Source of the DNA: Chiloscyllium plagiosum
Lineage: Eukaryota
Assembly: GCF_004010195.1 (NCBI RefSeq)
Contig: NC_057719.1
Coordinates: 11,222,507 to 11,286,506, forward strand
Length of the DNA stretch: 64,000 nucleotides
Direction: 5' to 3'
Shown here in pieces: positions 1,865-62,216 of the stretch. Position numbers and translations under genes: made by a program. Positions within the stretch are counted from its first letter, which is position 1. Every line of letters starts with the position of its first letter. Under the pieces are notes generated by a model, which was not told the DNA's origin, did no database searches, and saw only the letters and a program-made list of their open reading frames with translations.

Positions 1865-2065
1865 CCTGACTCATCAGTTTCTTCATTTCCCCTCCCCCCC
1901 ACCATATCCCAGATCCAACCTTCCAACGCGGCATTGCCCTCGTGACCTGTCCTACTTGTCCATCTTCCTTCCCACCTATCCAATCTCCTGCTCGAATGCT
2001 GCCTAACCTGCTGTGCTTTTCCAGCATCACACTCTTGACTCTAATCTCCAGCATCCACAGTCGTC
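1865..2065 (+). mobile_element. Penelope-like element 3' terminal fragment (family A)
   Basis: Ends with gctgcctaacctgctgtgcttttccagc...atctccagcatc, the same terminus as the family A palindromic elements. Confidence 0.7.
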
Positions 2066-2232
2066 TCTTTTGCCTAGGTTATATCCCTCTGGCCCTGGGG
2101 ATTTATCTACCTCATGAACGTGAAACTTTTCAGCACATCCTCCTTCTTAACGTCAACCTTTTTGAGCAAATCATTTTGCCCCACAATGTCCTCAGAAACA
2201 TCAAGGCCCTTCTCAGTAGTGAATATTTATTA

Positions 2233-2420
2233 AGGACAAAGTGAGGACTGCAGATGCTGGAGATCAGAGCTGAAAATGTGTTGCTGGAAAAGCGCAGCAG
2301 GTCAGGCAACATCCAAGGAGCAGGAGAATCGACGTTTCAGGCCCATCTCATGCCCGAAACGTCGATTCTCCTGCTCCTTGGATGCTGCCTGACCTGCTGC
2401 ACTTTTCCAGCAACACTCCA
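2233..2420. mobile_element. Fold-back PLE-derived short element (family A), hammerhead core deleted at the axis
   Basis: Inverted arms of about 65 bp (gtgttgctggaaaagcgcagcagg... / ...cctgctgcacttttccagcaacac) around 2345; keeps gcccGAAAcgTCgatt but lacks CTGATGA. Confidence 0.85.
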
Positions 2421-4842
2421 GAATCAAGTTCCCTCCACTATCCCTGATCGGTCCTACCCTCACTCTGGTCATCCTCTTGTTCCTCACATAAGTGTAGAAT
2501 GCCTTAGAATGCCTTAATCCTACCTGCTAAAGCTTTTTCATAACCCCTCTACCTCTCCTCAATCCATTCCTCAGTTACTTCCTGGCTACCTTGTAACCCT
2601 CTAAAGCCCTGTCTGATCCTTGCTTCATCACCCTGAAGTAAGCCTCCTTCTTCCTCTTGGCTAGATGTATGACATCCCTTGTCACCCAAGGTTCTTTCAA
2701 CTTACCATCCCTTGCTTGCCCCAGTGGGACAAACCTGTCCAGTACTATTCAGCAATTGCCTCCTAAACAACTTCCACATTTCTGTCATGCATTTCCTTGA
2801 GAACATCTGTTCCCAATTTAGGTGCCCCAATTCCTGCCTAATAACATTGTAATTACCCCTCCCCCAATTAAATACTTTCCCATACGATCTGCTCCTATCC
2901 CTCTCCATGAGTATAGTAAAGGTCAGGGAGTTGTGATCACTATCACTGAAATGCACTGAGAGATCTGACAACTGGCATGGTTCGTTGCCAAGCACCAAAT
3001 GTAATATGGCCTCCCCTTTATTCGGCCTATCTACATCTTGAGTCAAAACTCCTTCCTGGAAACACCTGACAAAAACTGCTCCATCCAAACTATTTGAACT
3101 AAGGAGGTTCCAATCAATGTTTGAGAAGCTAAAGTCACCCACAACAACAACCCTGTTACTTCTGCACCTTTCAAAACTCCGCCTCTCAATCTGCTCCTCC
3201 ATGTTGCTATGGGGGGGGGATGTCTGTAGAAAACTCCCAATAAAGTGACTGCTCCTTTCCTGCTTCTGACTTCCATCTATACTGACTGTGGACAAACCCT
3301 CTTTGAAGATCTCTTTCTGCAGCTTTGATACTATCCCTAATTGGCAATGCCACTCCTCCACCTATTTTACCTGCTCCCCTATTCATTTTGAAACACCTAA
3401 ACCTTGGAATATCCAACATTCCCGCCCCTATGATATCCAAGTCTTAGTAATGGCCACAACATCGTAGTTCCAAGTACTGATCCATGCTCTGAATTCATCA
3501 CCCTTATTCCTGATAAATTTTGCATTAAAATAGACACACTTTAACCTATCAGACTGACTGCAACTTTGCCCTATCAAGTGCCTATCCCTCTTCACGGTCT
3601 CTCTGCACACTGTATCTGGCTGTTCACGACCTACTCCATCATCTGATCTGTAGCTCAGGTTCCCACCCTCTCCTGCCAATCTAGTTTAACCCCACCCCGA
3701 AGAGCTCTAGCAAACCTCCCACCCAGGTTGGTGGTGCCCCTCCAGTTCAGGTACAACCCCTCCTTCTTTTACAGGTCCCAACTTCCCCAGACAATATCCC
3801 AATGATCCACATATCTGAAACCCTCCCTCCTACACCAGCCCTGCATGTTCATCTGCACTCACTCTCTGTCCCTGGCCTCACTAGCAAATGGCACTGGTAG
3901 CAATCTTGAGTTTACTACTCTGCTCGTCCTGCCTTGTGGCTTCCAACCTAACTGCCTATATTCTCTTTTCAGGTCCTGATCCCTTTCCTTACTTATGTCA
4001 TTGGTACCAATATGTACCATGACTTCTGGCTGCTCTCCCTCCCCCCTAAGAATCCTGGGGTAGACGAGATCCGAGACATCCCTGATCCTGACACCTAGGC
4101 AACAAAATACCATCCGGGAGTCTCATTCGCACCCACAGAATCTCCTGTCTGTTCCTCTCACGATTGAATCACCTGTCACTATCACTCTCCTATTCTCCCC
4201 CCTTCCCTTCTGAGCCACAGAGCCAGGCTCAGTGCCAGACACCTGGCCGCTGAGGCTTGCCCCGGTAGGTCGTTTCCCCCCCCCCAACAGTATCCAAAAT
4301 GGTATACTTATTATTGAGGGCAATGGCCACAGGGACTCCCTGCACTGTCTGCCTGTTCCCTTTCACTCTCCTGACGGGCACCCAGCTACCTTTATCCTGT
4401 AACCTAGGTGTGACCGCCTCCCTATAACTCCTATCACTACCATTGACCAAGTAAAGGTAATGCTTAGAGCACTCTTTTTGGGATTGAAGGTGACTGTGAA
4501 TCTAAGCAGAACTTATAGTACAATGTCCAAATGTGAAACATGACCACATTATGACAGACTGCTGTCAACCAAAAGAACAGAGATAGAGGATATGAATAAA
4601 TGGGAGTGTGAGAGGATGACTGTAAAAGGGATACATCGTTAAAAGGCAGAACGCAGCAATGACACTTGTATTTATACACACAGTGCTTTTAATGTGGTCA
4701 AACATCCCAAGGTACAGTCAGATATTAATGACACCATGTCAAAGGAGGAAATATTCCAATGGATAGCATAAAGCTACACCAAGAAGATGAAGATTTTAAG
4801 GAGGGGCTGAAAAGGAGAATAGACAAACAGGGAGGCTCATAT

Positions 4843-5173
4843 GGGCGGCACGGTGGCTCAGTGGTTAGCACTGCTGCCTCACAGTGCCAGGGACCTGGGT
4901 TCAATTCCCACCTCGGGCAACTGTCTGTGTGGAAATGCACATTCTCTCTGTGTCTGCATGGGTTTCCTCCAGGTGCTCCAGTTTCCTCCCACAGTCCAAA
5001 GATGTGTAGGTAGGTCAATTGGCCACGCTAAATTGCCAGTCGTATTAAGTGTATTAGTCAGGGTAAATATAGAGGGGGTGGGTTTCTCTTCGGAGGGTTG
5101 GTGTGGACTTGTTGGGCCGAAGGGCCTGTTTCAACACTGTAGGGAATCTAATCTAATCTAATCTAATCTAATC
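4843..5173 (+). mobile_element. HE1-like V-SINE (tRNA head, V-domain, CR1-type tail)
   Basis: gggcggcacggtggctcagtggttagcactgctgcc (A box), ggttcaattcc (B box), V-domain gggtttcctccaggtgctccagtttcctcccacagtccaaagatgtg, (AATCT)n tail. Confidence 0.95.
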
Positions 5174-5925: not shown

Positions 5926-7496
5926 AAGTGTAATAAACATTAATCAGCCCCATTTTATAACAAGTGCCCAGATTCAAATCTAGCTGCCCTGTCAATAACA
6001 AACAGCACAGCCCAAATGTTCAGATTGGGCCATCATGCTGCAATGTAACATGACACCTTTCCCAAACTGGTATCATTGGCTTTTGCATTTAGCAAGCTGG
6101 CTGCTTCTCCCGTCATAATCAGGGTAATGCCAACTCCCTGCAGGGGAGACCTGGCCTGATTACATTGTACCCCACTCCAGTACCCCTTGGTGCTTCCCCA
6201 CATCCCCATCCCTGTCTATTACCACTGACCAGCTAACACTGACCTAGGGTCTGCACAGAGCAGCACAATTGCCTACACACTTGTACTGACTGAGTCTTGG
6301 GGCCATATGACACAATAATTTAGTGATTATGTTTAATCTATGTGAAGGGGAAGAGAAGAACATTTCACACATGCACTCCGGAGCCTTTTCCTTCATGAGC
6401 TATTTAACCCCGACTGGAGCAAATATTGATTTCTTATGCACTGTACAGTATGTGTCTTATCAGAACACACTAGATAAAAGCATCATGCAGCTTGACTCTC
6501 AGGTTGTCCCATTAGGAATCTGCTGCTCCATTCTACTGATATCATGTGATTATTCCAGTGCAGTGGTCAGAGTCCTGACCTGATGACTCTAACAAGCCGC
6601 TTAGTTTATCTCAGGCATACACTGAATCGTCCTGAAATATCAGTTGATCATTTGGGACTCTTTGCTGCTGCAGAGCTGGTATTAATTGGCTGTGGCACTC
6701 GCGCACAGTCACTAAGCAAATGGTTAAAGTGAATTCGTACACAGCTCTTTTTTCACATCCAGAAATGTCTCATTCTCTTTTCTCAAGTCACACAGGGCGA
6801 TTTCTTAATTGGATAACAACTCCACAGGGACATCACACTCCAGTAATCTCCTCACACGCCTGCGGTTCCATTCTATTCTCAACTCTGTCAGTGATGTTGA
6901 TTTGGGGGTTGCGGGGGGAGATGTTCAGGCACTTAGAATCCACTGGGAAGCCAGGAGTGCCTCTTAGTGTGGTTGAATATTTCCCAGATTCAGTGTGTTA
7001 ATGTTTACAGGGGATCCCTGGGAGAGTGTCAGTATTTACAGTGGCTCCTCAGGAGAAAGGTTTAAAAATCTGGCCAGGACAATTTAAACCTTCCCCTGTC
7101 TCTCCCTCCCTGTGCTGGAATGGCATCAGAAACTGACGGTCTTTTGTGCATATTACTTGAGCAAACACAGGATGACAACAGCACAGAAAGAGACCATTCA
7201 GCTGGTCAGCTCTCCAAAGACCAATTCACTTCGGCCATACCCCTATCTTGTCCCCACAATGCAGCACGTTCTTCCTTTTCAGTTTCTGTTTGAATGTCTC
7301 AATTGAACCTGCCACTCTCAGGTAATGCATGCAAGATCCTGCATAAAAACCTATTTCCTTGGGGCCCCATATGACTTCTTTAAGCGATTACTGTATCTTT
7401 GAATCTCTGCTTTCTCAGTCTCAATCTTTCTACAAGTGGGAACATTCTTTCCCTATCTACTTTATCCACAGTCTTTATGATTTTGAATATGTCACA

Positions 7497-7632
7497 GCCC
7501 CCTTCTCCTCCCCCAGTCCTGATGACAGGTTCCAACCTGAAACGTTGACTCCCTTTCTCCTTGGATGCTGCCTGACCTGCTGTGCTTTTTCCAGCTCCAC
7601 TCTGACTCACCAACATCAGCAGTCCTCACTAT
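7497..7632 (+). mobile_element. PLE-derived short element (family A) with a hammerhead motif
   Basis: Family A 3' terminus (ggatgctgcctgacctgctgtgc...gcagtcctcact) preceded by a hammerhead motif. Confidence 0.85.
7515..7550 (+). ncRNA. Minimal type I hammerhead ribozyme motif
   Basis: AGTC-CTGATGA-C-AGGTT cc AACCT-GAAA-CG-TT-GACT: perfect 4-bp stem I, stem II, and palindromic AACGTT at helix III. Confidence 0.75.
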
Positions 7633-7827
7633 CACTCATCAAATCTGTACAAATCTACCACAGTGCACTGGGCCCAGTGTCTCAAATTCACTTTATAGTC
7701 TAAACAAGACGAGGATCATCACCACAGTCTAACTGCTGTAAGCTAGCAATCCTCACAATCTAAACACAGCAAACTGCATTTGCATTTGTGAGGCACCTTG
7801 TAAAACATTGCTTAATTTGAGCTATGA

Positions 7828-7926
7828 GTTTTGAGGAAAGGTCACTCAAGCCAAAACTTTAATGCTGATTTCTCCGCACAGATGCTGCCAGACCTGCTGA
7901 GCTTTTCCAGCAATTTCTGTTTTTGC
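7828..7926 (+). mobile_element. PLE-derived short element (family C), degenerate hammerhead
   Basis: ttttgaggaaaggtcactcaagccaaaac...cacagatgctgccagacctgctgagcttttccagcaatttctgtttttg. Confidence 0.7.
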
Positions 7927-7944
7927 TTAACTTGACATCAGTCA

Positions 7945-9545: not shown

Positions 9546-9665
9546 TTTTCTATCCATCGTATGGACCGTACAGCATCCTCGGGTAAGACAAAGGATGGAA
9601 GGGTTTGCTTTTTAATCAACAACTTGTGGTCCACGAACGTTGCAACCCTGGGCAGCCATGACTCC

Positions 9666-9870
9666 GAGGAGAAAGTGAGGTCTGCAGATGCTGGAGATCA
9701 AAGTTGAAACTTTATTGCTGGAACAGCACAGCAGGTCAGGCAGCATCCAGGGAACAGGAGATTCGACGTTTCGGGCACAGGCCCTTCTCCATTCCTGAAG
9801 AAGGGCCTGTGCCCGAAACATCGAATCTCCTGTTCCCTGGATGCTGCCTGACCTGCTGTGCTGTTCCAGC
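9666..9870. mobile_element. Fold-back PLE-derived short element (family A) flanked by a 185-bp direct duplication
   Basis: Arms gctggaacagcacagcagg...gcccttc / gaagggc...ctgttccagc; flanks 9481-9665 and 9868-10052 are direct copies. Confidence 0.92.
9791..9826 (+). ncRNA. Minimal type I hammerhead ribozyme motif
   Basis: ATTC-CTGAAGA-A-GGGC ctgt GCCC-GAAA-CA-TC-GAAT: perfect stems I and II and an intact core. Confidence 0.8.
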
Positions 9871-9934
9871 CCCAATATGCCTTCTCAGTACACTGTGCCT
9901 TAGGCACTAAATCGTGGAAGAGAATATGACCAAT

Positions 9935-12733: not shown

Positions 12734-12734
12734 T

Positions 12735-19532: not shown

Positions 19533-21881
19533 CTAGTAATGTTTTCTACTAAAGCTTCTGCAAAAAAAGAAAGCATTCTATTTCCTTCTAGCTCAGAGCC
19601 ATGACTGTACAGGAGGCTGTTCAGCCCATTGTGTCTGTGATAGTCTCATTATAAAAGAATATTCTATGGGAGAACATCCAACCTTGGCAAGTTCACACAG
19701 TCATTACCCATCACAACCCATTGTACACTCTGAATGATCTTTCTTTTTCATCAAAGTTGACTCAAAGGGTGTGTACTGCGCACATAATCAACAGATGCCC
19801 ATTTAATGGCCATTCCAAGTCTTTTCTTCAGGCAATGGCGATGTGGGTAGAGAGATTCGACTTGGATTTCGAAAAAGAGGGGTTGACCAAAAAAGAAAGC
19901 TTTAATCATCTCTGATGAAGTGCATCATGAGAATGCATCTTGTCAGTTCAAAGTAACTCACCCTTTCGAGAAGTGAGGATAGTAGAGGACAAGTGTCTTT
20001 AATAAGAAAAATATTTAATTGGAAATTAAATTCCACAAAATAAATATTTCCAGGGTTGAGAATTGTATTTATTTTTCTCCTTCCTTACTGCAGATTATTG
20101 GCTTTACTCAAATGCTATGCACGATTCCACAGTTGAAGGCACAGGATACATTCAAGGACAGTAGCATTGTAATATTGTGGCAACGCTCCAAAGCCAACAG
20201 TTCATATCTCACCACGGCACCTGTGGGAATTTAAATTCAGTGAATAAATCTGGGATAAAACCTAGTCTCCTTAGTTTCATAATTAAGACGAATGAATTGC
20301 CCGAAAAACCCATCTGATTCAAGACAGGAAATCTGATATCCTTACTAGGCCCGGCCTACGTATGACTCCAGTCAACACAGTGTTGACTCTTAACTGACCT
20401 CTTCACCGCAGTGGTTCCAGAATATGGCCACTCTCTCAAGGGCGATTAAGAACAGCAATGCCTTTCGAGAGAGATGGGTGCTACAGGAGGCAGAATGCTT
20501 CATTTCCCTCTCCAACTCCATACGGATTTAGCCCCTTCCTGTTCTCCCCACCTCCCCTTCACCATTTGATTGTTTACAGTGCCTGTGATGGGCTTTTCAT
20601 GTAAATATTCAATCGACCACACGGGTGATTTACTGCTGGTGGTGGTTAGTAGTTAAAAATCAAAAAAAAGGTAACATGCAATAAACATTGGACATGACAA
20701 TGGTACAAATAATGAATTAGAAAGAGAATTTCAGTTCATAGGAAAATACAGAAAATGTTCCACACCAACAGAAAAAGCAACAGACCAGTCAGCTATTTCT
20801 ACTAACTGCTAAAAGCTTAATTCCTCAAGATTTAAGCCCTGCTTGCTGGATTTATTCCTTTGGACATACGCAAAGATGACACAGCAGTTAGTATGCCTAA
20901 ACAGGAGCTTTTTTTTAATGGTTTAACATACTCACTCTCTCATGTAGCTTAAATCTCAAAAGACAAACATAATGAAGCACCGAACAATGGGACACGACAC
21001 AGCAAACCCCCGGTTGTTGAATAGATGGAGCTTGGAAAGTGTTGAGAATTCACTGCCGTCCCCTCCACCTCCCCGTGTCATCTAGTAAAATGATGTAATG
21101 ACTTAATTCAAAATGACTGTTAATTTCAGGCACAAATTTTAGAAATTATAATTCCACCCACAACTAGGGATGCAGCCATTAAATATTAATACAATGTTTA
21201 AACTCTGTGTCCCTCTTGGGTTTCTAAAGCATGTTCATCACAAATCACTAATATGCAGGGTCAGGATGGATGGAAAACTCGTTCAGCACTGCTTTTCCTC
21301 ATTTGCTCATTCTCTGGGTGAACATTGATGAGTATGAACAGCCTGTTGCACCTACTTTATTTGGGACACAGTGTCAAAGTTCACCAACTACAAGTCAGGG
21401 GCTTCAACTGAGTCAGCTTGTCGGATTCCACCCACAATATTCTTGACTTTATACTTTATAAAATACTTTATACTATCTCCATATCACACCTCACATGCAA
21501 AAGGACATCCTTAAGCATTTGCAAAGGAGATTCTGAGCAAGTCGGAAAACATCACAGCGGTGAGAGGGAGAAAAGAATGGCGTCTAAGTTTCTGACCTTT
21601 CTCCCCAACTCTTTGGAAAACACCGAGAGCTTTTACAAATTACACTACAAATGCATGACAGGCCTTTTCGTTTATTACTGTTGTTCGAACAGGAAACTCA
21701 GAGCAAAATGACTTGGCAGATAAGTACAAGCAACAGTTACTCAAACCCAATGCAATTTTCACCAAATGTCACAGTGTGCAGTGAAAATACCAGAGGAGGC
21801 CCCATGGACATGACAGAACAGGAAAGGTTGGAGTGGTGCTGGAAAAGTTCAGCAGGTCAGGCAGCATCCGAGGAGTAGGAA

Positions 21882-21917
21882 CATCGATGTTTCGGGCAAA
21901 AACCCTTCATCAGGAAT
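21882..21917 (-). ncRNA. Minimal hammerhead ribozyme motif (mirror copy)
   Basis: Reverse complement reads ATTC-CTGATGA-A-GGGT tttt GCCC-GAAA-CA-TC-GATG. Confidence 0.72.
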
Positions 21918-21925
21918 GAGGCCTC

Positions 21926-21961
21926 ATTCCTGATGAAGGGCTTCTGCCTGAAACATCGATT
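21926..21961 (+). ncRNA. Minimal hammerhead ribozyme motif
   Basis: ATTC-CTGATGA-A-GGGC ttct GCCT-GAAA-CA-TC-GATT. Confidence 0.75.
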
Positions 21962-23514
21962 CTTCTGCTCCTTGGATGCTGCCTGACCTGCTGTGCTTTT
22001 CCAGCACCACTCTAATCTAGACTCTGATCTCCAGCACCTGCAGTCCTCACTTTCACCTAGAACAGGAAAGTCTGGCAGTTCCATTTGAAAGCCTGGGTAT
22101 GCTCCACAGCACATCAAAATATTAAAATGCATTAACACAGAAAATGCTGGATAGACGCAACGGGTCAGTAGAAATCTGCTGGAGAGTAAAGGATCAGGTC
22201 AGGTGACGTTTGTTCTCATGAAGCTCCAGCCAAATCTCAAGCTTATCTTTCATCTTCCTATTTCTACACACTGTGTACTTTTCGCTTTAACTTCAGAACT
22301 CCAATTCTAATTATTGATCAATTCCTGGCATTTTTCTCCCTCACATATGTATTTAAACATTGTGAGTGTAGGTATATACTGGAGATTGGATAGTTCTCCA
22401 TTTCTCTGTGATAGTTGCTGACTGCCCACATATCTTCAATGAGAAACAGCCAATGACAGAAAATGGAAGATATTACATTTAACAGTTGGTCCCTATAATC
22501 ATGTGAATTAGCATTGATTACCTGATTGCATGGGGGAGGAATTTTCCAAAAAGATTTCAGCATTAAATTACATGCTGTGAATGGGAGATGAATAGAACGT
22601 AAGACATGCTTAAGTTAGGCTGCTCTAATCGCCATGATGTGGGGCAGACCTGATGGATGAGCAGATAATTTTCCATCCATCAGAACCTGGCTACTCCAGT
22701 GAGGTTACTCACTGTGCAAGTGATAAAGACCAAAGAGGTAGAATGGGAGCTGGCTACCTCATGCCCACAGTCACATAGTCTACTGACATTGTCAGTTCTA
22801 CAGTGAAAAAAATAAGGGAGATGGACTGATTGATTCACTCTTATGGAGAGCTGGCATTGACACAACAGGCCTTCCATTCTGCTGAACCATTCTATGTCTA
22901 TGCCTGAACTCAGAAATGAAATGGGTATGGTGGCTTCAACCATGAATGAAGCGAGGAAGAAATCTTGCATCTAATTAATGGGCTTGGGATTTGAATCTAA
23001 CACAAAAGTGAAGCGCGAGTTATGCATGAAGAACCTGAATCTCAAGATCAAATCTCAGCTTTGACACTTTTCCAAATTAATAAGGCAGCACATCCATCAT
23101 GTAGTTCGGCCACTGGGCATGTACATAATTCAGGTTCAGGCCCATTTGTGTGGCTATCACCCTGAATGTCAGACTGGTGCTCAATGATCATGCAAGATAC
23201 TCATGGGAGGGAGTAACAACTCTAACGTCATGGCTGGCAGGCTGAAAAGAAAGAATGGACAGGGTAACCAGTGTCAGTCCCACTGTTTAAAACAGAACTC
23301 TGGAAACTCTATCTTGTTTTTTGAATAGTAGCTTTAAAATAATAAAATTATCCAAAGCATCTCTCCCTTGGCCCAATGGGAAGATATATTTGAAGGTGAA
23401 TGCTGCCTAGCTTGCTGTGCTCTTCCAGCCTCCTGCTTGCCTATTTTGGATTCCAGCATTTGCAGTTTTTTTGTCTCAAACAAAATCAACAAGGCAAGAG
23501 GTGACAGTTTTATG

Positions 23515-23645: not shown

Positions 23646-23739
23646 TAGATTAGAGTGGTGCTGGAAAAGCACAGCAGGTCAGGCAGCATCCAAAGAGCAG
23701 GGCAAAAGCCATTCATCAGGAAAGTCCTTGTTTTTACCT
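23646..23739. mobile_element. Internally deleted PLE-derived short element (family A) with a 20-bp TSD
   Basis: TSD aaggggtttaagccaatgtc at 23626-23645 and 23740-23759; contains ttcatcaggaa (CTGATGA on the minus strand). Confidence 0.85.
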
Positions 23740-37636: not shown

Positions 37637-38354
37637 TATGATAGCTACCATCAATTGTTTTTGTAAAAACCCATTATGTTTCACTGAGAGCAAATGGAAG
37701 GAAGTCTGATATCTTTGCAGCATGTGACTCCATACCTACAACAATGTAGTTGACTCTTAACTGTTGTCTGAAATGGCTCAGCAAGTCACTCAGTTAAAAG
37801 GCAGTTTGGGATGGGTAACAAGTGCTGGTGTTTCCAGTGTTGCCTACACACGTTAAAGAACAAATCAAACAAACCTCCAATTTTCTCCTGTAAGTGTTTT
37901 TCTAATTTCCACTCAGATGCACTTCACTGTGGTAGCAAATTCTACATTTCTAATAATTTTCGATGCAAAGAATTTTCTCAATTGGAATTGTGTTATATTC
38001 TTTGCTATCCTTAAGTAATTGGAAATATTTTCTCCATATCTACCAAATCAAATCCTTCAATGCTTTTGAGAAGACATCACAAGCTGCTTCTTCCTTTCTA
38101 TCAATAATACCTTTCCACAGAAGGTGTTTGAGGTTAGACATGGAAAAATGTTGGTTAATTCAAAGAGTCTAACAAAACAGGAACACAAAATTAATTTGTA
38201 AGCTTCTGCCTAAATTTTCAGATAAGTATCTCCATCGATTATGGATGCATTAATATACAAAGAAATATTCATCACAAACTGGAAGCTTTAGATTTTAATT
38301 GCTTTGCTATTAATCAGTGATATAAAGGAAGAATCTTCATCAACTCAAGATGAC

Positions 38355-40872: not shown

Positions 40873-41090
40873 AGCAAACGTGAGGACTGCAGATGCTGGA
40901 AACCAGAGCCTAGATTAGAATGGCGCTGGAAAAGCAAAGCAGGTCAGGCAGCATCCGAGGAGCAGGAAAATTGATTTTTCGGGCATTCCCTTCAGGAATG
41001 CTGAAGGGCTTTTGCCTGAAACGTCGATTTTCCTGCTCCTCAGATGCTGCCTGACCTGCTGAGCTTTTCCAGCACCACTCTAATCTAGAC
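40873..41090. mobile_element. Fold-back PLE-derived short element (family A) with a 14-bp TSD
   Basis: TSD aataggtctcctca at 40859-40872 and 41091-41104; inverted arms around 40998; hammerhead cores disrupted. Confidence 0.93.
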
Positions 41091-41511: not shown

Positions 41512-41843
41512 GGGTGGCACATTGGCTCAGTGGTTAGCACTGCTGCCTGACTATGCCAGGACCCAGGTTTGATTCCAGCCTCAGGCGACTGTCTTGTGGA
41601 GTTTGCACATTCTCCCCATGTCTGTGTGGGTTTCCTCTGGTTTCCTTCCACAGTCCAAAGATGTGCAGGTCAGGTGAATTGGCCATGCTAAATTTCCCAT
41701 AGTGTTCAGGGATGTGTAGGTTAGGTGCATTAGTCAGGGGTAAATATAGAGTGGGAAATGGGTCTGGGTGGGTTACTCTTCAGAAGGACAGTTTGGACTT
41801 ATTGGGCTGAAGGGCCTGTTTCCACACTGCAGGGATTCTATGA
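41512..41843 (+). mobile_element. HE1-like V-SINE
   Basis: Complete head, V-domain and tail. Confidence 0.93.
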
Positions 41844-41849
41844 AACAGA

Positions 41850-42130
41850 TTTAGAGATACCGGTGTTGGACTGGGGTGTACAAAGTTAAAAATCACATAA
41901 CATCAGGTTATAGTCCAACAGATTTATTTGGAACCACTAGCTTTCAGAGTGCTGCTCCTCCATCAGGTGGATGTGGTGTTTAACACTGTAAGACACAGAA
42001 TTTACATTAAAAATTTACAGTGTGATGTAACTGAAATGATACATTGAAAAGGACCTGGATTGTTTGTTAAGTCTCTCATCTTTTAGAACGAACATGTTGG
42101 TTTCAGTTCTTTCATATGTAAATTATAAAA
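41850..42130 (-). mobile_element. PLE 3' terminal fragment (family B)
   Basis: ggtgttggactggggtgtacaaagttaaaaatcac...cactagctttcagagtgctgctcctccatcaggtgg (mutated hammerhead on the minus strand). Confidence 0.82.
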
Positions 42131-42464
42131 CATTTAAAAGTTATATTAAACGTTAAGAGAAAGGAGTTGCAAATGGTTATTAGTTAATATTCTGTTAGAC
42201 TTAAAAGTAATCAATTTTTGGAATAGTTTTTGGAATAGTTCTTTGCCTTTCAAACTTTAACAGATTACAGCCCGGGGTGAATCTTAACTACGCTGCTGGT
42301 TTAAATTAGCAGAGATGTTTACCCCGTGTCATAACAGTTAAAATTCTAGAGGCAAAGAACTATCCCAAAAGTCACTATTTTAAAGTAAAAATTGACAACT
42401 TTAAGTCCAACACAGAATATTAACAGATGCTCTAGCTGTTTTGACCAAATCTTACATTGTTACC

Positions 42465-46974: not shown

Positions 46975-47780
46975 TCTCTTTTAATCTTTCTCCACTCACC
47001 TTAAAAGTATGCTCCATAGTTTAGAACTCCCCTACCCTAGGGGAAATATCTTTGCTATTCACCTTGTCCACATCCCTCATGATTTTATAAACCTCTACAA
47101 GGTCACCCCTCAACCTCCTACATTCCAGTCCCAGCTTATCCAGCCTCTCTTTATAACTCAAACCCTCTAGTCCCGGCAAACCCCTGGTACCGAACCCTCT
47201 CCAATTTATGATTTGGAAGAGCCGGTGTTGGACTGGGGCGAACAAAGTTAAAAATCACACAACACCAGATTATAGTCCCACAGGTTTATTTGGAAGCACT
47301 AGCTTTTGGAGCGCTGCTCCTTCATCAGGTGGTTGTGGACACTACAAAGAAGGAGCAGCGCTCTGAAAGGTAGTGCTTCCAAATAAACTCATTGGACTAT
47401 AACTTGGTGTTGTGTGATTTTTAACTCTCCACTTTAGTAATAGCCTTCAACTAGAAGGGTGACCAGAATTCTACACAGCACTCCAAATGTGGCCTCACCA
47501 TCTTCCTGTACAAACTCAACATGACGTCCCTGATCCAAGCAATGAAGGGAACATGCTAACCACCTTCCTAACCACCCTGTCTACCAATGATGCAACTTTG
47601 AAAGAACGATGTATCTGAACTCCTAAGCCTCTCTGTTCTGCAACATTATCCAGGGCCCTACCATTAACTGTATAACTCCTGCCCTTGTTCACTTTACCAA
47701 AATGCAATACCTCGCACTTACCCAAAGTAAATTCCATCTGCGACTCCTGGGCCCAATGGCCCAACAGATTGACCATTGGG
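46975..47780 (-). mobile_element. CR1 fragment interrupted by a family B palindrome
   Basis: LPGLEGLSYKERLDKLGL; KCEVLHFGK. Confidence 0.88.
47210..47425. mobile_element. Fold-back PLE-derived short element (family B)
   Basis: Inverted arms; minus strand reads cac-CTGATGA-A-GGAGC agc GCTCC-AAAA-GC-TA-gtg; imperfect TSD ctctccaattta / ctctccacttta. Confidence 0.9.
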
Positions 47781-48314
47781 CACAAGGAAGAATTACAACG
47801 ATCAAAAATAATGGAATGTTACAGCACTTGGCCCATCATGCCGGTGTAAGCTCAGTAGTAGAGACATTTAATTAGACCCAAATCCAAAAATAAAAAGCAA
47901 ATCAATATGGACTTTGCTATTTACTCTCTTTTGACCTCAGTCCTATTCCAGGCTCTTGATTTTGTTACTTATCCCATTCTTCGTTTTCAATCGGATATAA
48001 CCTACCACATTTCAACCTTCTTTCAGTTCTGAACAAGAATGAAGTCAAAATTTGAAATGTTAACACCGTTTTTCTCTCTCCACAGTTGCTACCAGACCTA
48101 CTGAGATTGATATCAACACATTCTCAACATGTGTCATGTCAGTATCACTAAAGAACGTTCACATAAGAATCTAAACTCTTTTGTTACATTCATCGAGCAA
48201 GAGTATGTTTACAGGGCAAACACTTTAAACTTGTGCCATCGACAAGACAAGAAAATCTTTGGAGTGTAAACATTTTAAACTGATGCCATATATCAACATG
48301 AGACAAGAATATGA

Positions 48315-48414
48315 AATTCTGATGAAGATTCACCAGATCTGAAATATTAACTCGGTTTTCTCCCCACAGATGCTGCCAAACCTTGGTGAGTTTCTCCAGC
48401 AATTTCTGTCTTTG
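48315..48414 (+). mobile_element. PLE-derived short element (family C) with an intact hammerhead core
   Basis: AATT-CTGATGA-AGAT tcaccag ATCT-GAAA-TA-TT-AACT followed by cacagatgctgcc...tttctccagcaatttctg; a more decayed copy lies near 48020-48110. Confidence 0.78.
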
Positions 48415-49441
48415 ATTAAATTATAAGGACTCTAAATCCACAGGAGAACTCACTAGTGAGCATTCGCTCTTCTTTGAACTAGCCTGCAATAAAAACATAA
48501 TGAGATTTCAGACTGCATTAAAATCAATTATTTTCAGTCAACGTCTTAATTAATTCTACTTATTTTTCACCAGATAAAAATCATTCATGCTTTGTATAAA
48601 CAGGAGTTATTCCTAATAATACCAACAGGATATCAGTAATTTCACACTAGTGACGCCAACTTAATTGCAACTTTACCTTTTTCAAGTTATCAAGTTAAGC
48701 CTCCACACAGCTTATGCATTTCACATCACAGGAAGCAATGTTTAACAAATATATTTCTAGTTAGTATCAGTGCTTATAATAAAAAAAAGGTGAGACCATC
48801 AGTTTTTGTTGCACATTTAAAATTACAGGACCCTTTGCACAAAGCCTGGGTTATGCAGCAATGTTAGTGCCACCGATTTTAAGATCAGTGTTTTCACTTC
48901 CGGCAGCATCAAAGCGCGCAGCGAGCTACTGACTTATCCTTTCATGGTACTTTTCACATTTCAGATTTTAATAATCAAGCTCGTTATATATACTGTGCCC
49001 CGTAAGGAACACAAATTCAAATCAAAGCCAAGATTGTCTGTTATACTTCGTATTGAACAACACAACTTACGAACAATCAACTCTGAACAGCATTCTGCTC
49101 AATGAGTCGGCTCCATAGCTCATTGCTGATCTAATAATCTTCAACTCCACTTTCCTGTCATTTCCCTATATTCTCTGCATTCCCTTACTGATTAAAAATC
49201 TCTTTAACTCAGCCTTCAATATATTCAGAGTCATAGAGGTCAACAGCAGAGAAAAAGGCCTTTTAGCCCATCGTGTCCATACCAGTCGAAAACATCAGCT
49301 AACTGTTCTCATCTCACTTTCCAGGATTTGGCCCATAGCCTTGTGTGCCTTAGCATACATTGGCAGAGTTAGCCATAAGAAAGAGTGGAGATAGGTTGCA
49401 CTGAGGATAGTTTCAGTCATAGAACAAGAGGCAAACAACCA

Positions 49442-50634: not shown

Positions 50635-50726
50635 GGGGTCAAAAAGTGTTCCACTGGAAAAATGCAGCTGGTCAGACAGCATCCAAGGAGCAGGAGAGTC
50701 AAAGTTTTGGGCCCTTCATCAGGAAT
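50635..50726 (-). mobile_element. PLE-derived short element (family A), single arm, 11-bp TSD
   Basis: TSD gttcaaatcca at 50624-50634 and 50727-50737; ends gcccttcatcaggaat. Confidence 0.85.
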
Positions 50727-51211
50727 GTTCAAATCCAACCTGTTTCAGAGCTGTGTCATAACATATCTGGATAGATTCATCAAAAGACATCGAAACTGAG
50801 GAATGGTCAGAAGTGTTTACCTTCCTTTTCCTTCTCTCCATTTTGGGCTAGGTAGCACAGTGGTAGTGTTACTACCTCTAGGCCAGAAGGTTCAAGTTCA
50901 ACTCCCATCTGCCTAGACGGGTATCATAATATGCCCAAACAGCTTGATTTACAAAGATTCAGAGATGATTATCCAGACATGATAATCTCCAATGAGAGAC
51001 TTTCCTTTGACCTCAATGGTATTAGCACCACTGAATCCCACACAATCAATACCCAGAGTGTTACTATTGACCAGAAACTGAACTGACTCGCCATATAAAA
51101 ACTGTGGCTATAACAGTAGGGTCAAAGGCTGAGAATTCTGCACTGAGTAACTCATATCCTTAAAACGTGCCCACCATTTACAAGGAATAAATCAGGAGTG
51201 CAATGGAATAC

Positions 51212-51964
51212 ACAGGTCAGGCAGCACCCAAAGAGCAGGAGAACTGATGTTTCAGGCATAAGCCCTTCATCACATTTCCTGTTGAAGGGCTTATGCCCGA
51301 AACATTGGTTCTCCTGCCCCTTGGATGCTATCTGACCTGCTGTGCTTTTCTAGCGCCACAGGGGCAGCAAAGTGTACCATGTACAAGAAAATCTGCAACA
51401 ACCCTTTTTTTCATGGAATCCTTAGAGTGTGGAAACAGGCCAGTCGGTGCACACTAACCCTGCAAAGAGCATCCCACCCAGACCCACCTCCCAAACCTAT
51501 CCTTGTAACCCCGCATTTTCCAATGGCTAACCCACCTGACCTACACATTCCTGAACATTACAGGCAGTGGGCGGCACGGTAGCACAGTGGTTAGCACTGC
51601 TGCCTCACAGCGCCAGAGACCCGGGTTCAATTCCCGACTCAGGCGACTGACTGTGTGGAGTTTGCACGTTCTCCCCGTGGCTGCGTGGGTTTCCTCCGGG
51701 TGCTCCGGTTTCCTCCCACAGTCCAAAGATGTGCAGCCCAGGTGAATTGGCCATGCTAAATTGCCCGTAGTGTTAGGTAAGGGGTAAATGTAGGGGTATG
51801 GGTGGGTTGCGCTACGGCGGGTCAGTGTGGACTTGTTGGGCCGAAGGGCCTGTTTCCACACTGTAATGTAATCTAATCTAATCTAATCTAATCTAATCTA
51901 ATCTAATCTAATGTAAAAACCTTTAGGCTCTGATCTCCAGCATCTGCAGTCCTCCCTTTCTCCC
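51212..51964. mobile_element. Fold-back PLE-derived element (family A) split by a 212-bp local copy plus a SINE
   Basis: Arms at 51212-51356; remainder ctctgatctccagcatctgcagtcctc at about 51925-51964; TSD agtgcaatggaatac / agtgtaatggaatac (51197-51211, 51965-51979). Confidence 0.85.
51569..51912 (+). mobile_element. HE1-like V-SINE, young copy with a long (AATCT)n tail
   Basis: CpG-rich complete copy. Confidence 0.96.
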
Positions 51965-52161
51965 AGTGTAATGGAATACTCCCCACTTGCCTGGGTGACT
52001 GCAGCTCCAAAAACATTAAAGAAAACTCGTCACCATCTAGGACAAAGCAATCCATTTGATTTGCACCCATCCACCATCTTCAGCATTCACTCCCACCATT
52101 ATCAATGCACAGGGGCAGCAAAGTGTACCATGTACAAGAAAATCTGCAACAACCCTTTTTT

Positions 52162-55509: not shown

Positions 55510-56429
55510 TTCTTCAAAGCAGTGTTGGAAATGCAAATGCAAAGATGAAATTCATGATAGTGGGCATGTGGCGAGCCATCCAGCTTCACAGGTTAAATTA
55601 ACTTTCTTCTAACTCAAAATCTCCACCGATTGGCAATTCAGTTGCTTACAAAGTTTGGTGGAGACCCTCAGCTTTAATAATGACTTGAGGTAGCACACCA
55701 ACACTTTATATCCTGGGTTTCTGTCGGTTCCTCTGTTTGATGAGGCATTTCAGTGGAATCAGAAACAACGCCAATTCAAGTTCCCTACCTATTAGGAACT
55801 TGAATTAGGCTATTAGGATGTGGTCCAGTACATGGGCTGGCTTTTCTCTCCCACGCAATCATCATTCAATAAAACATTGTTCCTACAATTAATCAACTAT
55901 TTATTGACTTTTCATCCAAACAAGCTGACAGTGTTATCATGATTTTCCTCCTATCTTACTGCCACATTCTTCTCCAACAGACGGAAAGGCCTGGTCTGAA
56001 CATTTGTGGTTTTTGAGATACTGCTGACTGTTCTGTGAAGGGACTGGGGAAAGGGTACAGTTGCCTTTGTTACTGAAGGTTTGTAGCACCAAGGTCAGGT
56101 GCATTAAGTCACTCAGGGACTTGTTTATTTATCCACATTCCTCATGAGTCTTTACCTCCAGTACTCCCAGTTGAAATCACTGGCTTTCACCACCATGACA
56201 GGTTTTGGTGTTGATAATTTTTTCTAATTTATTTTCCTCTGCGAGTACCTTCAATGTCCATGCACACCTGTGCCTTCCAGAGTTGCAAGTTAATGCTGTA
56301 ATCCACTTCAGCAGCCGATCACCATGCGCAGAACATAGAAACAGCTGCATGCAACTTTGAGGAAATGTTGGTAGTGATATCTCTGAACTAATAATCCAGA
56401 ACCCCAAGTTAATGTTCTGAGAACACAAA

Positions 56430-56625
56430 CTAAGAACCGCAGGTGCCGGAAATCAAAAGCAGAAACAGATATTACTGGAAACCTCAGCAGGTCTGTTAGC
56501 ATCTGTGGAGAGAAAGCAGAGTTAGTGTTTTGGGTCCAGTGACCCTTCTCCAAACCTGAAATATTGACTCTGTTTTCTCTCCACTGATGCTGAGTTTCTC
56601 CAGCAATTTCATTTTTTGTTTCTGA
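56430..56625. mobile_element. Fold-back PLE-derived short element (family C)
   Basis: cagaaacagatattactggaaacctcagc...gcatctgtggagagaaagcagagt / actctgttttctctccactgatgctgagtttctccagcaatttc...tgtttctg, inserted in a SINE head. Confidence 0.75.
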
Positions 56626-57074
56626 AGTTCTAAGGATGTGGACTTGAATCCCACCATGGCAGGTAGTGAAAATTTGAATTCAATAGAAATCTGGAATATA
56701 AAGCTAGTCTGAGGGGACCTCGTAAATAATGTTAATCATTAAATCCCACCAATGTACTTTGGGGAAGGGAAATCTTTCATTCACTTACCTGGTCTGGCCT
56801 TTATGTCCAATGCAACATGGTTGACTTGGAACTGCCTTCTTAGCAATTAGGAATGGACAATAAGTGCTGATTTAGCCAATGACACCCACATTGTGTGAAC
56901 AAATTTAAAGAAGAAGGATGTGCAGATTCTGAAATGAACAATGTGCAACTGAAATTGAGGTTCTGTCTGACCAAGTGTACACACAACTGTAATATCCTTG
57001 GTCATGTTGTGCTATTCAAGAAACATTGATTCATAAAAAAACGGGAGTGGGATTAAGCTATTTGGTGCCAAACC

Positions 57075-60037: not shown

Positions 60038-60846
60038 GTGTGATGTTTATACTGCTGCTCTGCTCAGGAAGCAGCAGGGGACAACAACCAATGGTACTAC
60101 TCCAGGGTGTGTGTGCAGGGTGAGATTTGGCCAGCAACAAGTAGCTGATTGGCTTGTGCAATTGAGGCCAGTCATGGATATCAAAGATCATCAGCTTGAT
60201 GACAAATCATTGATTTGATCCTGGGCAGCTGAAGATTTTGTGGAGGTGAATGATACAGGAAAAAAAAGCCCGCAGACTGTTGGAAGTGCAAATGATGTGT
60301 TGCTCTCGCTATGTGGTAAAAATACCTGTGGCCCAAAGAAAACCAGTTATTTTCTTCGAGCAGTTTCTGTAAACTGTTGCCTCAACCCAGTAGCTAAGCT
60401 TTTGGAGCTAGTGTACTAATCACCCCGTACCTCCTCCAAACAAATGAAAGAACCCAGAGAAGGAGGCTGAAGAACAGAAATCTTGGCAAGCCAAAAGGAA
60501 CATTTTAACGAGCCCTATGGCCTGGTGCTGTGCTTCCCAGTTTCTGTTCTATCCTTCCACCCACAAAACCAATACTTTTCTGTTTGTGTCTATCTGTATG
60601 TGTGTGTAGAGATTTCAAAACAGAGTTAACAGTTTTAACTAGTACAGCCATATGTTGATTATTCATAGTTGCTTACTTGTGATTTAAATTTACTTATTTG
60701 TAATAAATAGTGAATCTTAAAATTTGGAAATAGTCAGTGTTTTCTGTCAACCTGACTGCTTTGATTAAATCATTTGTGTTTCTGACAACCCCAGGAGTTG
60801 TGGGACTTGAAAATCAGTGCCCTTTCCCAAGTGGGTTTTAACAACA
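60038..60846 (+). mobile_element. Possible solo LTR
   Basis: TG...CA bounded non-coding segment (tgtgatg...taacaaca) with aataaa near 60703. Confidence 0.35.
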
Positions 60847-61231
60847 TACAAGGCCCCTCCTATCTTCACCACAAGGACAGTAAACCTTCATTGACACTTA
60901 CTTGTATTATATATATTATTTCTAACATATTGATTAACATACAAAATGAAGTAACTTTGATCACCATTTCAGGTTGTTTAAAATTAACATTTGTAAAAAA
61001 TCTTTAAAATACCAAACACAAGAGTTATACCTGAAATCATTACCATAGCACATGTTCATCCTCTTTTAATCCATGACATCCACCAAATGGGTTACCAGCT
61101 CCATTTAGACATATTTCTGGAGATTTCATTTCATAAAAGCCCTTAATATTGTCAGGTAGTCAAACAGCCTCTAAGCCTCACTTATAACATTGTGAATTTA
61201 AGACATTATTTTGTCCTTTTTTTTAAACAGA

Positions 61232-61784
61232 GGTTATAAGGTAGACGTACTGAGCTGACTACGGAAGATCTCGAGTAAATCATTCGAGAGGCTTTGGGTT
61301 TCTTTTTTAAACAGCCTAAATGGTTGTGACCACTCTCACAGATCCAGATTTCTGGGATTGGACTTTTCAGTAGCATCAGAGCTATTGGGGTCTCAACAGA
61401 GTTGGAATCTTTAGTGAATATCTCCTGATGACTATACTTTCTCTGAATTTTCTCTTAATTGTTTTTCCTTCTGTGTCTGAATTTTCCTTTTTCGCCAAGC
61501 GATGTGTTAATGGGATATTACTATATTGGAACAGTTAATTAGTAATAGTTAACTGCATTTGTTATTCTGTATCTATTTTCCAATAGAGTTAAACTATTCT
61601 AAATTACTCTTTCTTTGATTGTATTTTAACTACAGTGTTTAAATATATTGTGTTTTGCTTGACATCGAGTAGTTTGACCAGTTGTATTGCATCTGGAACA
61701 GACAATTTACATTTGCCATTAAAATAAGAAAAGTTAGGGTCAAGGCTACCTTCTTAAAATATTGGTGTGGTCTGGTCCATAACC
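61232..61784 (+). mobile_element. Possible solo LTR
   Basis: gttat...ataac inverted termini with attaaa upstream of the 3' end. Confidence 0.4.
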
Positions 61785-62120
61785 ATTTTATAATCTTCAA
61801 TTTCTGGACAGTCCAGGGTACTCTCGAAGGATGGCAACCCTAACCCATCCTTATTATTTGTGAACCAATGGACAATTTAACTTCAAGAATTTAACGGCAG
61901 AAGAACTGAAGGTGGCATTAAAAAAAGGTGGTTATGATCTGGAATGTGCTGCCCAGGAGTGTGGTAGAAGCAAATTCAATATGGACTTTCTAAAGGGAAT
62001 TGAATAATTATCAAAAGACAAAAAATACCATGGAGAAACGCCAAAGGACTGGGATGAGGAAAATCGCTCACGAAGAGAGACAACATGGGAGTGACAGGTT
62101 GGATGGTTTCCTTCTATACA

Positions 62121-62216
62121 TCATTCCTGATGAAGGGCTCCGGCCCGAAATGTCGATTTTCCTGTTCTTTGGATGCTGCCTGACCTGCTGGGCTTTTCCA
62201 GCAACACACTCTCAAC
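62121..62216 (+). mobile_element. PLE-derived short element (family A), single arm, 12-bp TSD
   Basis: TSD tccttctataca at 62109-62120 and 62217-62228; the element starts 2 nt before the hammerhead. Confidence 0.92.
62123..62158 (+). ncRNA. Minimal hammerhead ribozyme motif
   Basis: ATTC-CTGATGA-A-GGGC tccg GCCC-GAAA-TG-TC-GATT. Confidence 0.78.

What the first reader, a model, noticed from the sequence alone, without database searches (positions are those of the whole stretch)
1865..62216. Three families of tiny, non-coding, hammerhead-bearing Penelope-derived mobile elements
Seen in the sequence: about 15 insertions of 100-280 bp. Family A is at 1865, 2233, 7497, 9666, 21827, 23646, 40873, 50635, 51212 and 62121; family B at 34475, 37413, 41850 and 47210; family C at 7828, 48315 and 56430. 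The better-preserved copies carry stem I-CTGANGA-(extra nt)-stem II-GAAA-NN-TH-stem I'. Stems covary between copies and families (stem II GGGC/GCCC, AGGTT/AACCT, GGAGC/GCTCC, AGAT/ATCT; stem I ATTC/GAAT, AGTC/GACT, CAC/GTG) while the core is retained. Helix III is reduced to a palindrome (ACGT, AGCT, AATATT). Established knowledge: Penelope-like element termini encode minimal hammerheads of this type, thought to cleave as dimers. Inference: these copies behave as a very abundant ribozyme-carrying non-autonomous element class mobilised by PLE proteins, roughly one per 4 kb here. I cannot tell whether they are already catalogued for this species.
Basis: partly seen in the sequence, partly recalled or inferred. 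Interest (0 to 1): 0.85.

Follow-up and report, generated by a model that had tools for sequence, protein, structure and literature searches.

The report
Abortive Penelope insertions carrying hammerhead leaders
These tiny repeats are the hammerhead-bearing end pieces of three protein-coding Penelope-like jumping genes, scattered about once every 4 kb through a shark-like genome, and are likely dead by-products of failed insertion rather than a new self-spreading ribozyme element.

Summary
The repeats and the minimal-hammerhead motif are real. They are not a separate non-autonomous class. All three families continue, in longer genomic copies, into the GIY-YIG end of Penelope-like (PLE) ORFs. 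In family A the same module also runs on into the leader, ATG and RT of the next unit. This is the known PLE 'inverted copy plus tail' pattern. Lengths are not smooth: 5' ends pile up at the upstream edge of the hammerhead (about -9 to 0), not at its cut site. Likely mechanism: both target nicks prime reverse transcription inside the mRNA leader, and the copies run off the RNA 5' end. Covariation is real between subfamilies, including a U3-A8 core variant in about 2,700 exact matches. Most copies are decayed, and cleavage is untested. This scan already reported the pattern in five other pieces of this genome. Known kind, with a useful mechanistic footprint.

The parts
1871..2078 (+). Family A copy: 3' UTR piece (-241..-128 relative to hammerhead C3) joined directly to tail (+31..+128); hammerhead absent
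2231..2418 (.). Family A head-to-head pair: minus arm +16..+127 (long end), plus arm +11..+82 (short end); core missing in both
7488..7635 (+). Family A single arm, about -34..+123
7515..7550 (+). Minimal hammerhead motif, stems I and II and CG palindrome intact (AGTC/GACT, AGGT/ACCT)
7821..7928 (+). Family C single arm, about -10..+97, 13-bp TSD at 7808-7820 and 7923-7935; core decayed
9664..9874 (.). Family A head-to-head pair: minus arm +5..+128, plus arm -6..+79
9791..9826 (+). Minimal hammerhead motif (ATTC/GAAT, GGGC/GCCC; palindrome decayed to CA)
21827..22058 (.). Family A head-to-head pair, both arms starting at about -8 (GG|CC centre); short minus arm to +82, long plus arm to +129; 12-bp TSD at 21815-21826 and 22059-22070
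21926..21961 (+). Minimal hammerhead motif in the plus arm
21882..21917 (-). Minimal hammerhead motif in the minus arm
23646..23739 (-). Family A short arm (-6..+91, internal deletion) plus a 14-18 nt inverted stub of the outer tail end; 20-bp TSD at 23626-23645 and 23740-23759
34479..34601 (+). Family B single arm +5..+127, core missing; sits beside an older unrelated PLE RT fragment
37409..37640 (.). Family B head-to-head pair: minus arm +11..+119, plus arm -36..+85
40873..41090 (.). Family A head-to-head pair: minus arm -5..+123, plus arm +1..+89; 14-bp TSD at 40859-40872 and 41091-41104
41838..42147 (-). Family B longer arm, -182..+128 (reaches into the parent 3' UTR)
47209..47424 (.). Family B head-to-head pair: minus arm -12..+124, plus arm +5..+84; 12-bp TSD (one mismatch) at 47197-47208 and 47425-47436
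47993..48109 (+).
48316..48417 (+). Family C single arm -3..+97; core letters kept, stem II broken in register
50635..50726 (-). Family A single arm -5..+89 with stem II deletion; 11-bp TSD at 50624-50634 and 50727-50737
51211..51360 (.). Family A head-to-head pair: minus arm +1..+65, plus arm -4..+81
51921..51967 (+).
56427..56626 (.). Family C head-to-head pair: minus arm -6..+127, plus arm +18..+102
62121..62216 (+). Family A single arm starting at -6, ending at about +90; 12-bp TSD at 62109-62120 and 62217-62228
62123..62158 (+). Minimal hammerhead motif (palindrome decayed to TG)

Best explanation
The repeats are the hammerhead-plus-tail module of three autonomous, Neptune-type Penelope-like retrotransposon families, likely laid down afresh at each site as abortive insertions: the element's endonuclease would nick both target strands 12-16 bp apart, and each nick would prime reverse transcription at one of two sites inside the mRNA leader and likely run off the RNA's 5' end just upstream of the hammerhead. 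SHOWN: continuity with GIY-YIG ORF ends (A, B, C) and with leader, ATG and RT (A); TSDs; two 3' ends (+80-95 and +120-128 from hammerhead C3); head-to-head geometry with one long and one short end; a 5' wall at about -9 to 0; no pile-up at the cut site (+28); decay of most copies. INFERRED: two separate RNA-templated syntheses, joined head to head at their ends; the wall is the transcript start; single arms are events in which the second synthesis was empty or a stub; the leader site is preferred because the protein-binding region lies just downstream of it; short copies cannot be remobilised because they lack that region. The ribozyme is likely maintained by selection only in the master elements.
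For: Parents: longer A copies run through about 250 nt of UTR into GIY-YIG, a CxxxxCxxC linker and RT. B and C parents match the GIY-YIG end of full-length homologues at E 1e-21 and 4e-5 to 4e-7. The A RT frame finds 1,377 proteins; the best 120 are 725-1,690 aa, many with RVT_1 and GIY-YIG, and 114 of 120 carry CX2-5CXXC near the C-terminus. Leader: in 19 of 19 oriented loci the tail runs past +128 into a shared leader with the same ATG, and in L140 and L142 on into RT. In 8 of those 19 the upstream module also starts at -12..+5. Geometry: 47 head-to-head pairs, 0 tail-to-tail; 42 of 47 long+short (p 1e-8 against independence); 47 of 47 junction coordinates distinct. In 19 of 42 such pairs the short arm reaches at least 10 nt further 5' than the long arm, so neither arm can be a copy of the other. 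Arms of one insertion are more alike than arms of different insertions in 40 of 43 pairs. 7 of 16 short single arms with a TSD carry a 6-33 nt inverted stub of the outer tail end (by eye). TSD score of 9 or more in 47 of 140 insertions against 1.4% of controls; 35 of 47 are 12-16 bp. Wall: termination per 10 nt is 0.49 at -10..0 against 0.01-0.1 upstream of -20 (182 arms). Among the first 100 of 47,934 exact core matches, 41 stop between -9 and 0 and at most 2 in the next 10 nt (by eye). At most 3 of 99 readable rows start at the cut site (by eye). Literature: an Anolis Poseidon protein nicks and extends both strands, starts RT at two internal sites 111-118 nt into the ORF that begins in hammerhead stem II, needs the RNA downstream to +172, is predicted to be a dimer, and does not need hammerhead cleavage (PMC11167929, main text).
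Against: No RNA 5' end was observed: the one raw RNA run that laid showed no place where many molecules begin or end, though a fragmented single-cell library has little power to show one. The wall is not absolute: 57 of the 100 rows (tip of contig C1, mostly one subfamily) read on past -16 to -19, and 38 of 182 arms pass -30. In D. virilis the transcript starts 46 nt upstream of a 75-nt intron whose end maps to helix I (PMC2377424, PMC4209133), so a start at the hammerhead edge is not the known arrangement. Deletions at palindrome centres after insertion could also make unique, asymmetric junctions. The in vitro data come from a Poseidon element, not a Neptune. The leader link was shown for family A only; no shared sequence beyond +128 was found among the B (35) and C (48) long ends held. 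Profile boundaries are uncertain by about 3 nt, and '-10' calls in A are probably -8.
Confidence: 0.6

Rival explanations
1. Same abortive PLE insertions, but the 5' wall is a point where the reverse transcriptase drops off (a fold, a bound protein or a processing site next to stem I) on a longer RNA, not the transcript start.
For: The wall coincides with the 5' edge of stem I in all three families. Some copies jump from about -6..-9 to upstream positions (L141; contig joints). One subfamily often reads through.
Against: An enzyme moving 3' to 5' meets the hammerhead stems at +20..+32, yet few copies stop there. By -4 the fold has already been copied. The 41 stops share no common upstream sequence, which argues against a splice junction.
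Confidence: 0.22
2. One reading: a distinct non-autonomous class. Short hammerhead-bearing RNAs, or fold-back masters with one long and one short arm, are amplified in trans by PLE proteins, and junction diversity comes from later deletions at unstable palindrome centres.
For: Strong excess of short copies: 109 of 139 insertions lie within -40..+130; tail to ORF-end 19-mers 209,519 to 7,442. A recurrent perfect -8/-8 centre is seen in several top hits of a query that itself held that centre. 13 of 19 leader-bearing loci are internally deleted mini-tandems that could serve as masters. Dispersed retrozyme 'monomers' are described in vertebrates (bioRxiv 10.64898/2026.07.22.740005).
Against: The module is indistinguishable from the ends of autonomous copies. 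47 of 47 junctions differ, and all 13 mini-tandems have different jump points. The same long+short layout occurs with arms of 120-500 nt. Single arms with either end sit flush between TSDs. Separate masters would be needed for every subfamily of three families.
Confidence: 0.13
3. Hammerhead self-cleavage defines the template: cleaved (or circularised) RNAs are what gets copied, as proposed for retrozymes.
For: Subfamily-level compensation in stems and the U3-A8 core swap show selection on the fold in masters. Window copy 1871-2078 and L035 join UTR to +30/+31, and two leader loci start at +28.
Against: No peak at +28: 0 of 205 arms at +27/+28 and 6 at +26..+31; at most 3 of 99. No tandem arrays of the unit in the window. 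Catalytic mutants did not change insertion in vitro for the Anolis element (PMC11167929).
Confidence: 0.05

Closest known systems
Canonical EN+ Penelope-like elements, Neptune type, and their insertion units (pLTR, adjacent inverted 5'-truncated copy, 30-40 bp tail; PMC8557442 passages, PMC2377424 passages)
   Same: Single ORF with RT, CxxxxCxxC linker and C-terminal GIY-YIG; hammerhead in the pLTR; partial tandems; inverted truncated copy; tail at one end only.
   Different: Extreme skew to 90-240 bp units; about 0.9 million insertions by extrapolation; a sharp 5' wall at the hammerhead edge, which I did not find described in the papers read.
Minimal hammerheads of metazoan PLEs (Cervera and De la Pena 2014, PMC4209133; abstract, Results, Discussion read)
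   Same: No helix III loop, palindromic 15.2-16.2, extra base after A9, G10.1-C11.1, mostly solo motifs, pairs on opposite strands, U3-A8 core variant.
   Different: That paper reports thousands of motifs per genome (about 4,000 coelacanth, 9,000 Xenopus) and the U3-A8 variant in Schistosoma; here 47,934 exact matches to one 16-mer of one family, and U3-A8 in a vertebrate. Helix II is 4-5 bp here, 7-8 bp in Schistosoma.
Poseidon_Ac of Anolis, in vitro (Frangieh et al. 2024, PMC11167929; main text read)
   Same: Two RT start sites about 120 nt downstream of the hammerhead core bound the tail; both strands nicked and extended; hammerhead at the 5' end of the coding unit.
   Different: There the ORF starts in stem II; here the family A ATG lies about 170 nt downstream of C3, so hammerhead and tail are non-coding leader. 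Different clade.
Non-LTR (animal) retrozymes (bioRxiv 10.64898/2026.07.22.740005, parts 1-3 of 5 read; PMC7229834, search listing only)
   Same: Non-coding, hammerhead-bearing, related to PLE pLTRs, with dispersed monomers; reported in one chondrichthyan.
   Different: Retrozymes are head-to-tail arrays with a complete hammerhead in each unit; these are single or head-to-head units with unique junctions.
L1 twin priming and retroviral strong-stop DNA (recalled, no call)
   Same: Both target nicks prime and give a 5' inversion; priming near the RNA 5' end gives a short run-off cDNA.
   Different: Here both arms copy the same stretch, from two fixed internal sites, which needs two templates or two passes; no tRNA primer and no poly(A).

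Membership tests
EN+ Penelope-like element (parents of A, B, C) | One ORF with RT and C-terminal GIY-YIG endonuclease, contiguous with the repeat | tested here: met
   A: RT, linker and GIY-YIG in decayed frames upstream of the module; B: GIY-YIG region E 1e-21; C: last 60-90 aa only, E 4e-5 to 4e-7. No intact full ORF was seen.
EN+ Penelope-like element (parents of A, B, C) | pLTR / partial tandem: same module before the ORF start and after the ORF end | tested here: met
   Family A. Not shown for B or C.
EN+ Penelope-like element (parents of A, B, C) | Adjacent inverted 5'-truncated copy and a 30-40 bp tail at one end | tested here: met
   47 head-to-head pairs, 42 long+short; bimodal 3' ends in all three families
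Neptune clade | CX2-5CXXC zinc-finger-like linker between RT and EN (PMC8557442; shared with Nematis) | tested here: met
   Present in A and B parents and in 114 of 120 homologues; C linker not reached
Neptune clade | Placement on an RT tree with named Neptune references | not tested
   No named reference sequences were on hand; the clade name rests on the linker
Minimal type I hammerhead of PLEs | Core CUGANGA/GAAA/UH, extra base after A9, G10.1-C11.1, palindromic 15.2-16.2, short helix I | tested here: met
   Commonest letters per column in all three families; 5 window motifs against 0 in 50 shuffles
Minimal type I hammerhead of PLEs | Compensatory covariation | tested here: met
   A: G-C to A-T at 10.2-11.2 in 4 of 57 arms; C-like subfamily: stem I T-A to C-G in 4 of 26 arms with U3-A8 core; 100 of 100 listed matches have A8 and 97 have U3. 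Counts are of related copies, not independent events.
Minimal type I hammerhead of PLEs | Self-cleavage (dimeric or protein-assisted) | not testable with these tools
   No bench assay; one search had no power for RNA ends
Non-LTR retrozyme | Head-to-tail array with a complete hammerhead in at least two consecutive units | tested here: not met
   No such array in the window; 3 '++' and 2 '--' among 139 insertions. Mini-tandems with two direct modules exist elsewhere (13 of 19 leader loci).
Non-LTR retrozyme | Accumulating circular RNA | not testable with these tools
   No suitable RNA library was laid
Non-autonomous family with its own master (SINE- or MITE-like) | Fixed internal structure shared by many copies and distinct from the autonomous partner | tested here: not met
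   47 of 47 junction coordinates distinct; sequence is that of the autonomous ends; TSD length varies 9-20 bp

The most novel reading that the evidence does not exclude
Penelope-like elements copy their RNA leader first: a dimeric RT-endonuclease primes both target ends at two fixed sites in the leader and makes strong-stop-like cDNAs that must jump to the RNA 3' end to finish. The roughly 0.9 million short units in this genome are the fossil record of failed jumps, they map the transcript start to the first bases of the hammerhead, and the jumps that land wrongly make two-hammerhead mini-tandems, a direct route to animal retrozymes.
Probability: 0.3. Interest if true: 0.65.

Novelty: new member of a known kind. 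Interest (0 to 1): 0.3.

Why it matters
How PLEs insert and what their hammerheads do are open questions (PMC11167929, PMC8557442). This genome offers a very large natural sample that fits the 2024 in vitro results (two start sites, both strands primed, cleavage not needed) and gives base-level predictions: transcript start at about -9..-3, priming at about +88 and +128, 12-16 bp stagger. It also matters for annotation: PLE pieces cover about 6.8% of the sampled bases, and hammerhead counts in such genomes overstate active ribozymes. It is not a new element class.

Tried and rejected
Rfam scan: no hammerhead family reached E 10; the miRNA hits only reflect the hairpins. Pfam on window ORFs: only LINE-type RT and endonuclease pieces, no intact PLE ORF in the window; Pfam on the A parent gave RVT_1 at E 0.002, below the cut-off, and no GIY-YIG hit, so GIY-YIG rests on motifs and tblastn with homologues. 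Long 'open frames' of 780-1,339 aa in the genome search were assembly gaps; no intact autonomous copy was found. Cleavage-defined 5' ends: rejected. Fold-back of one cDNA as the general source of inverted arms: disfavoured by 19 of 42 pairs. Splice acceptor as the wall: no shared upstream exon among the stops. Selection on the copies: non-CpG divergence at core against tail columns was 0.039/0.070 (A), 0.041/0.071 (B), 0.118/0.143 (C); the tail median column is 0.05, 0.05, 0.12, so the gap mostly reflects subfamily differences, and I read it as inconclusive rather than as selection. Sequencing runs: no RNA holder listed. Of four runs laid, X21 gave 0 reads; X20 gave 2,707 reads in both directions, about 20-fold deeper on the module than on the ORF, 94% running on into unlike sequence, which fits passive transcription of scattered copies and may come from a related species. 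An initiator-like YYANWYY at -4 in A and C (motif recalled) is too degenerate to count. The larger unbiased sample I wanted was not obtained, so counts rest on 574 kb plus 113 kb of locus flanks. Literature: searches for Penelope+hammerhead+shark, Penelope-like+hammerhead+non-autonomous (10), +reverse transcription+inverted+tail (15), Penelope/Neptune/shark genome/a shark genus, three of four (61), pLTR+promoter+transcription start+inverted (62) and internal promoter+virilis+tandem (66) found no paper that describes these families or the 5' wall. Repbase and Dfam could not be searched, and the supplements of the retrozyme preprint are closed, so the families may already be catalogued.

Full report
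1. Setting. The window lies on contig C10 of a 3.56 Gb genome. It holds many tRNA-like SINE copies and LINE fragments; the SINE looks like the shark HE1 type (name recalled, no call). Positions below are counted from C3, the first base of the hammerhead core CUGANGA; the predicted cut lies between +27 and +28 in family A.

2. Observation. All 17 listed sites are real, and three more fragments exist. A strict descriptor finds five minimal hammerheads in the window and none in 50 shuffles; all five are family A. In 574 kb from ten contigs (556 kb without N) profile searches gave 139 insertions (75 A, 27 B, 37 C), one per 4.0 kb, range one per 2.8-7.5 kb by contig. Extrapolated, that is about 0.9 million; one exact 19-mer of the A tail alone occurs 209,519 times. 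264 kb of the sample is the window and its neighbours.

3. Parents. Longer A copies extend through about 250 nt of UTR into a decayed ORF with GIY-YIG, a CxxxxCxxC linker and RT. A natural 412-aa RT frame finds 1,377 proteins; many of the best 120 carry RVT_1 and GIY-YIG, and 114 of 120 have the linker. B extends through about 700 nt of UTR into a GIY-YIG region with the linker, and C into the last 60-90 residues of one. The linker marks Neptune and Nematis elements (PMC8557442, passages); no tree was built. In family A the tail also continues past +128 into a shared leader and ATG in 19 of 19 oriented loci, and in L140 and L142 on into RT. So the module is both the 3' end of genomic copies and the 5' leader of the coding unit. 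Exact 19-mer counts are tail 209,519, ORF end 7,442, leader 378; they are affected by subfamily differences and by assembly gaps in long copies.

4. Anatomy. 3' ends are bimodal in all families, +80-95 (to +102 in C) and +120-128. With 113 kb of locus flanks added, there are 47 head-to-head pairs and no tail-to-tail pair; 42 of 47 have one long and one short end (p 1e-8), and all 47 junction coordinates differ. The short arm reaches at least 10 nt further 5' in 19 of the 42, the long arm in 8, and 15 are within 10 nt. The two arms of an insertion are more alike than arms of different insertions in 24 of 25 A, 8 of 10 B and 8 of 8 C pairs. Direct repeats scoring 9 or more flank 47 of 140 insertions against 1.4% of mismatched controls; 35 of 47 are 12-16 bp, with no strong AT bias (63% against 58%). 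Of 16 short single arms with a TSD, 7 carry a tiny inverted stub of the outer tail end (by eye). 86 of 139 insertions show a single arm. The inverted copy and the one-sided tail are described as typical of PLEs (PMC8557442, passages).

5. The 5' wall. Termination per 10 nt rises to 0.23 at 0..+10, 0.49 at -10..0 and 0.26 at -20..-10, then falls to 0.01-0.1 (182 arms); 109 of 139 insertions stay within -40 and 10 reach the ORF. At base level, of the first 100 listed of 47,934 exact core matches, 41 stop between -9 and 0, 2 are ambiguous and 57 read on past -16 to -19 (by eye; all from the first 3.9 Mb of C1, and most read-throughs are one subfamily). The cut site is not favoured: at most 3 of 99 readable rows, and no arm at +27 or +28 among 205.

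6. The ribozyme. Column-wise, each family fits the minimal hammerhead of Cervera and De la Pena (PMC4209133, Results and Discussion): extra base after A9, G10.1-C11.1, palindrome ACGU or AGCU, short helix I. Compensation is seen between families and subfamilies. The strongest case is a C-like subfamily with stem I AGCU/AGCU and the core pair changed from C3-G8 to U3-A8: 2,697 exact matches, A8 in 100 of 100 listed and U3 in 97. That paper reports the same swap in Schistosoma. This points to selection in the masters. The copies are decaying, with CpG loss at G12 and in the palindrome: 17 of 57 A, 6 of 25 B and 0 of 26 C arms keep core and stems. Inverted units are predicted to fold as single hairpins of -80 to -170 kcal/mol that pair the motif with its antisense. 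Published minimal hammerheads cleave poorly, and only as multimers (PMC4209133) or with the protein (PMC11167929).

7. Mechanism. For an Anolis Poseidon element, purified protein nicks and extends both strands, starts at two internal sites that bound the tail, needs RNA downstream of them, gives products whose length follows the RNA 5' end, and is unaffected by hammerhead mutations (PMC11167929, parts 1-2 of 4). The genomic pattern here fits: two nicks 12-16 bp apart, one primed at about +128 and the other at about +88, two cDNAs joined head to head. Because the protein-binding region would lie just downstream of the leader copy of these sites, priming there would dominate and give only 90-140 nt before the RNA ends. 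That last step, and the reading of the wall as the transcript start, are inference. Rivals are drop-off on a longer RNA (0.22), non-autonomous masters with later central deletions (0.13) and cleavage-defined templates (0.05). 13 of 19 leader-bearing loci are internally deleted mini-tandems, each with its own jump point; they resemble retrozyme dimers as defined in bioRxiv 10.64898/2026.07.22.740005 (parts 1-3 of 5; supplements closed).

8. RNA. One raw run (X20, single-cell polyA, possibly a related species) laid 2,707 reads in both directions, with depth about 940-990 on the module against 40-70 at the ORF end; 94% ran on into unlike sequence, loose ends marked the same boundaries (-6, +120 to +124), and no place showed many molecule ends. 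This fits passive transcription of scattered copies and does not test cleavage or the start site.

9. Prior knowledge and verdict. Motif, parent class and insertion pattern are known. Six literature searches found no description of these families or of the wall; repeat databases were not available. This scan reported the same pattern in five other pieces of this genome and a similar wall in another genome; a search for the leader and run-off reading returned nothing. Verdict: new members of a known kind; interest 0.3.

Noticed in passing
window 34100-34420 and about 35650-35750 (+): Decayed fragments of another, older PLE reverse transcriptase with Poseidon-like motifs (tblastn E 3e-4 for the first piece; motifs recalled), interrupted by the family B copy at 34479 and other repeats.
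   Followed up: partly
L156-L169; G000 genome-wide: C-like subfamily with a U3-A8 hammerhead core and a compensated stem I, 2,697 exact matches; not present in the window.
   Followed up: partly
L136, L139, L141, L142, L144, L145, L147-L153: Internally deleted mini-tandems (module, leader, jump, module), each with its own jump point; 8 of 19 have two direct hammerhead regions and could in principle form the dimeric fold.
   Followed up: partly
G000 contig C1, first 3.9 Mb: One family A subfamily usually extends upstream past the 5' wall, which suggests a different RNA start or read-through.
   Followed up: no
window 4841-5164, 18120-18435, 23786-24111, 25312-25620, 49932-50255, 51567-51916, 53896-54250 and others: Many copies of a tRNA-like SINE with (TAATC)n tails, HE1-like by recall, in both orientations.
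   Followed up: no
window 529-1032, 2702-3361, 9930-11455, 13507-14770, 27480-28530, 31721-32535, 58313-59703: LINE fragments with RT or endonuclease matches, several in inverted orientation to each other.
   Followed up: no
window 54246-54910: Two direct copies of 276 nt at 99% identity, 389 nt apart: a recent local duplication or an assembly artefact.
   Followed up: no
inverted pairs genome-wide: About a third of insertions would form long near-perfect hairpins if transcribed, a large possible source of double-stranded RNA; one search gave no clear sign of A-to-I editing.
   Followed up: no
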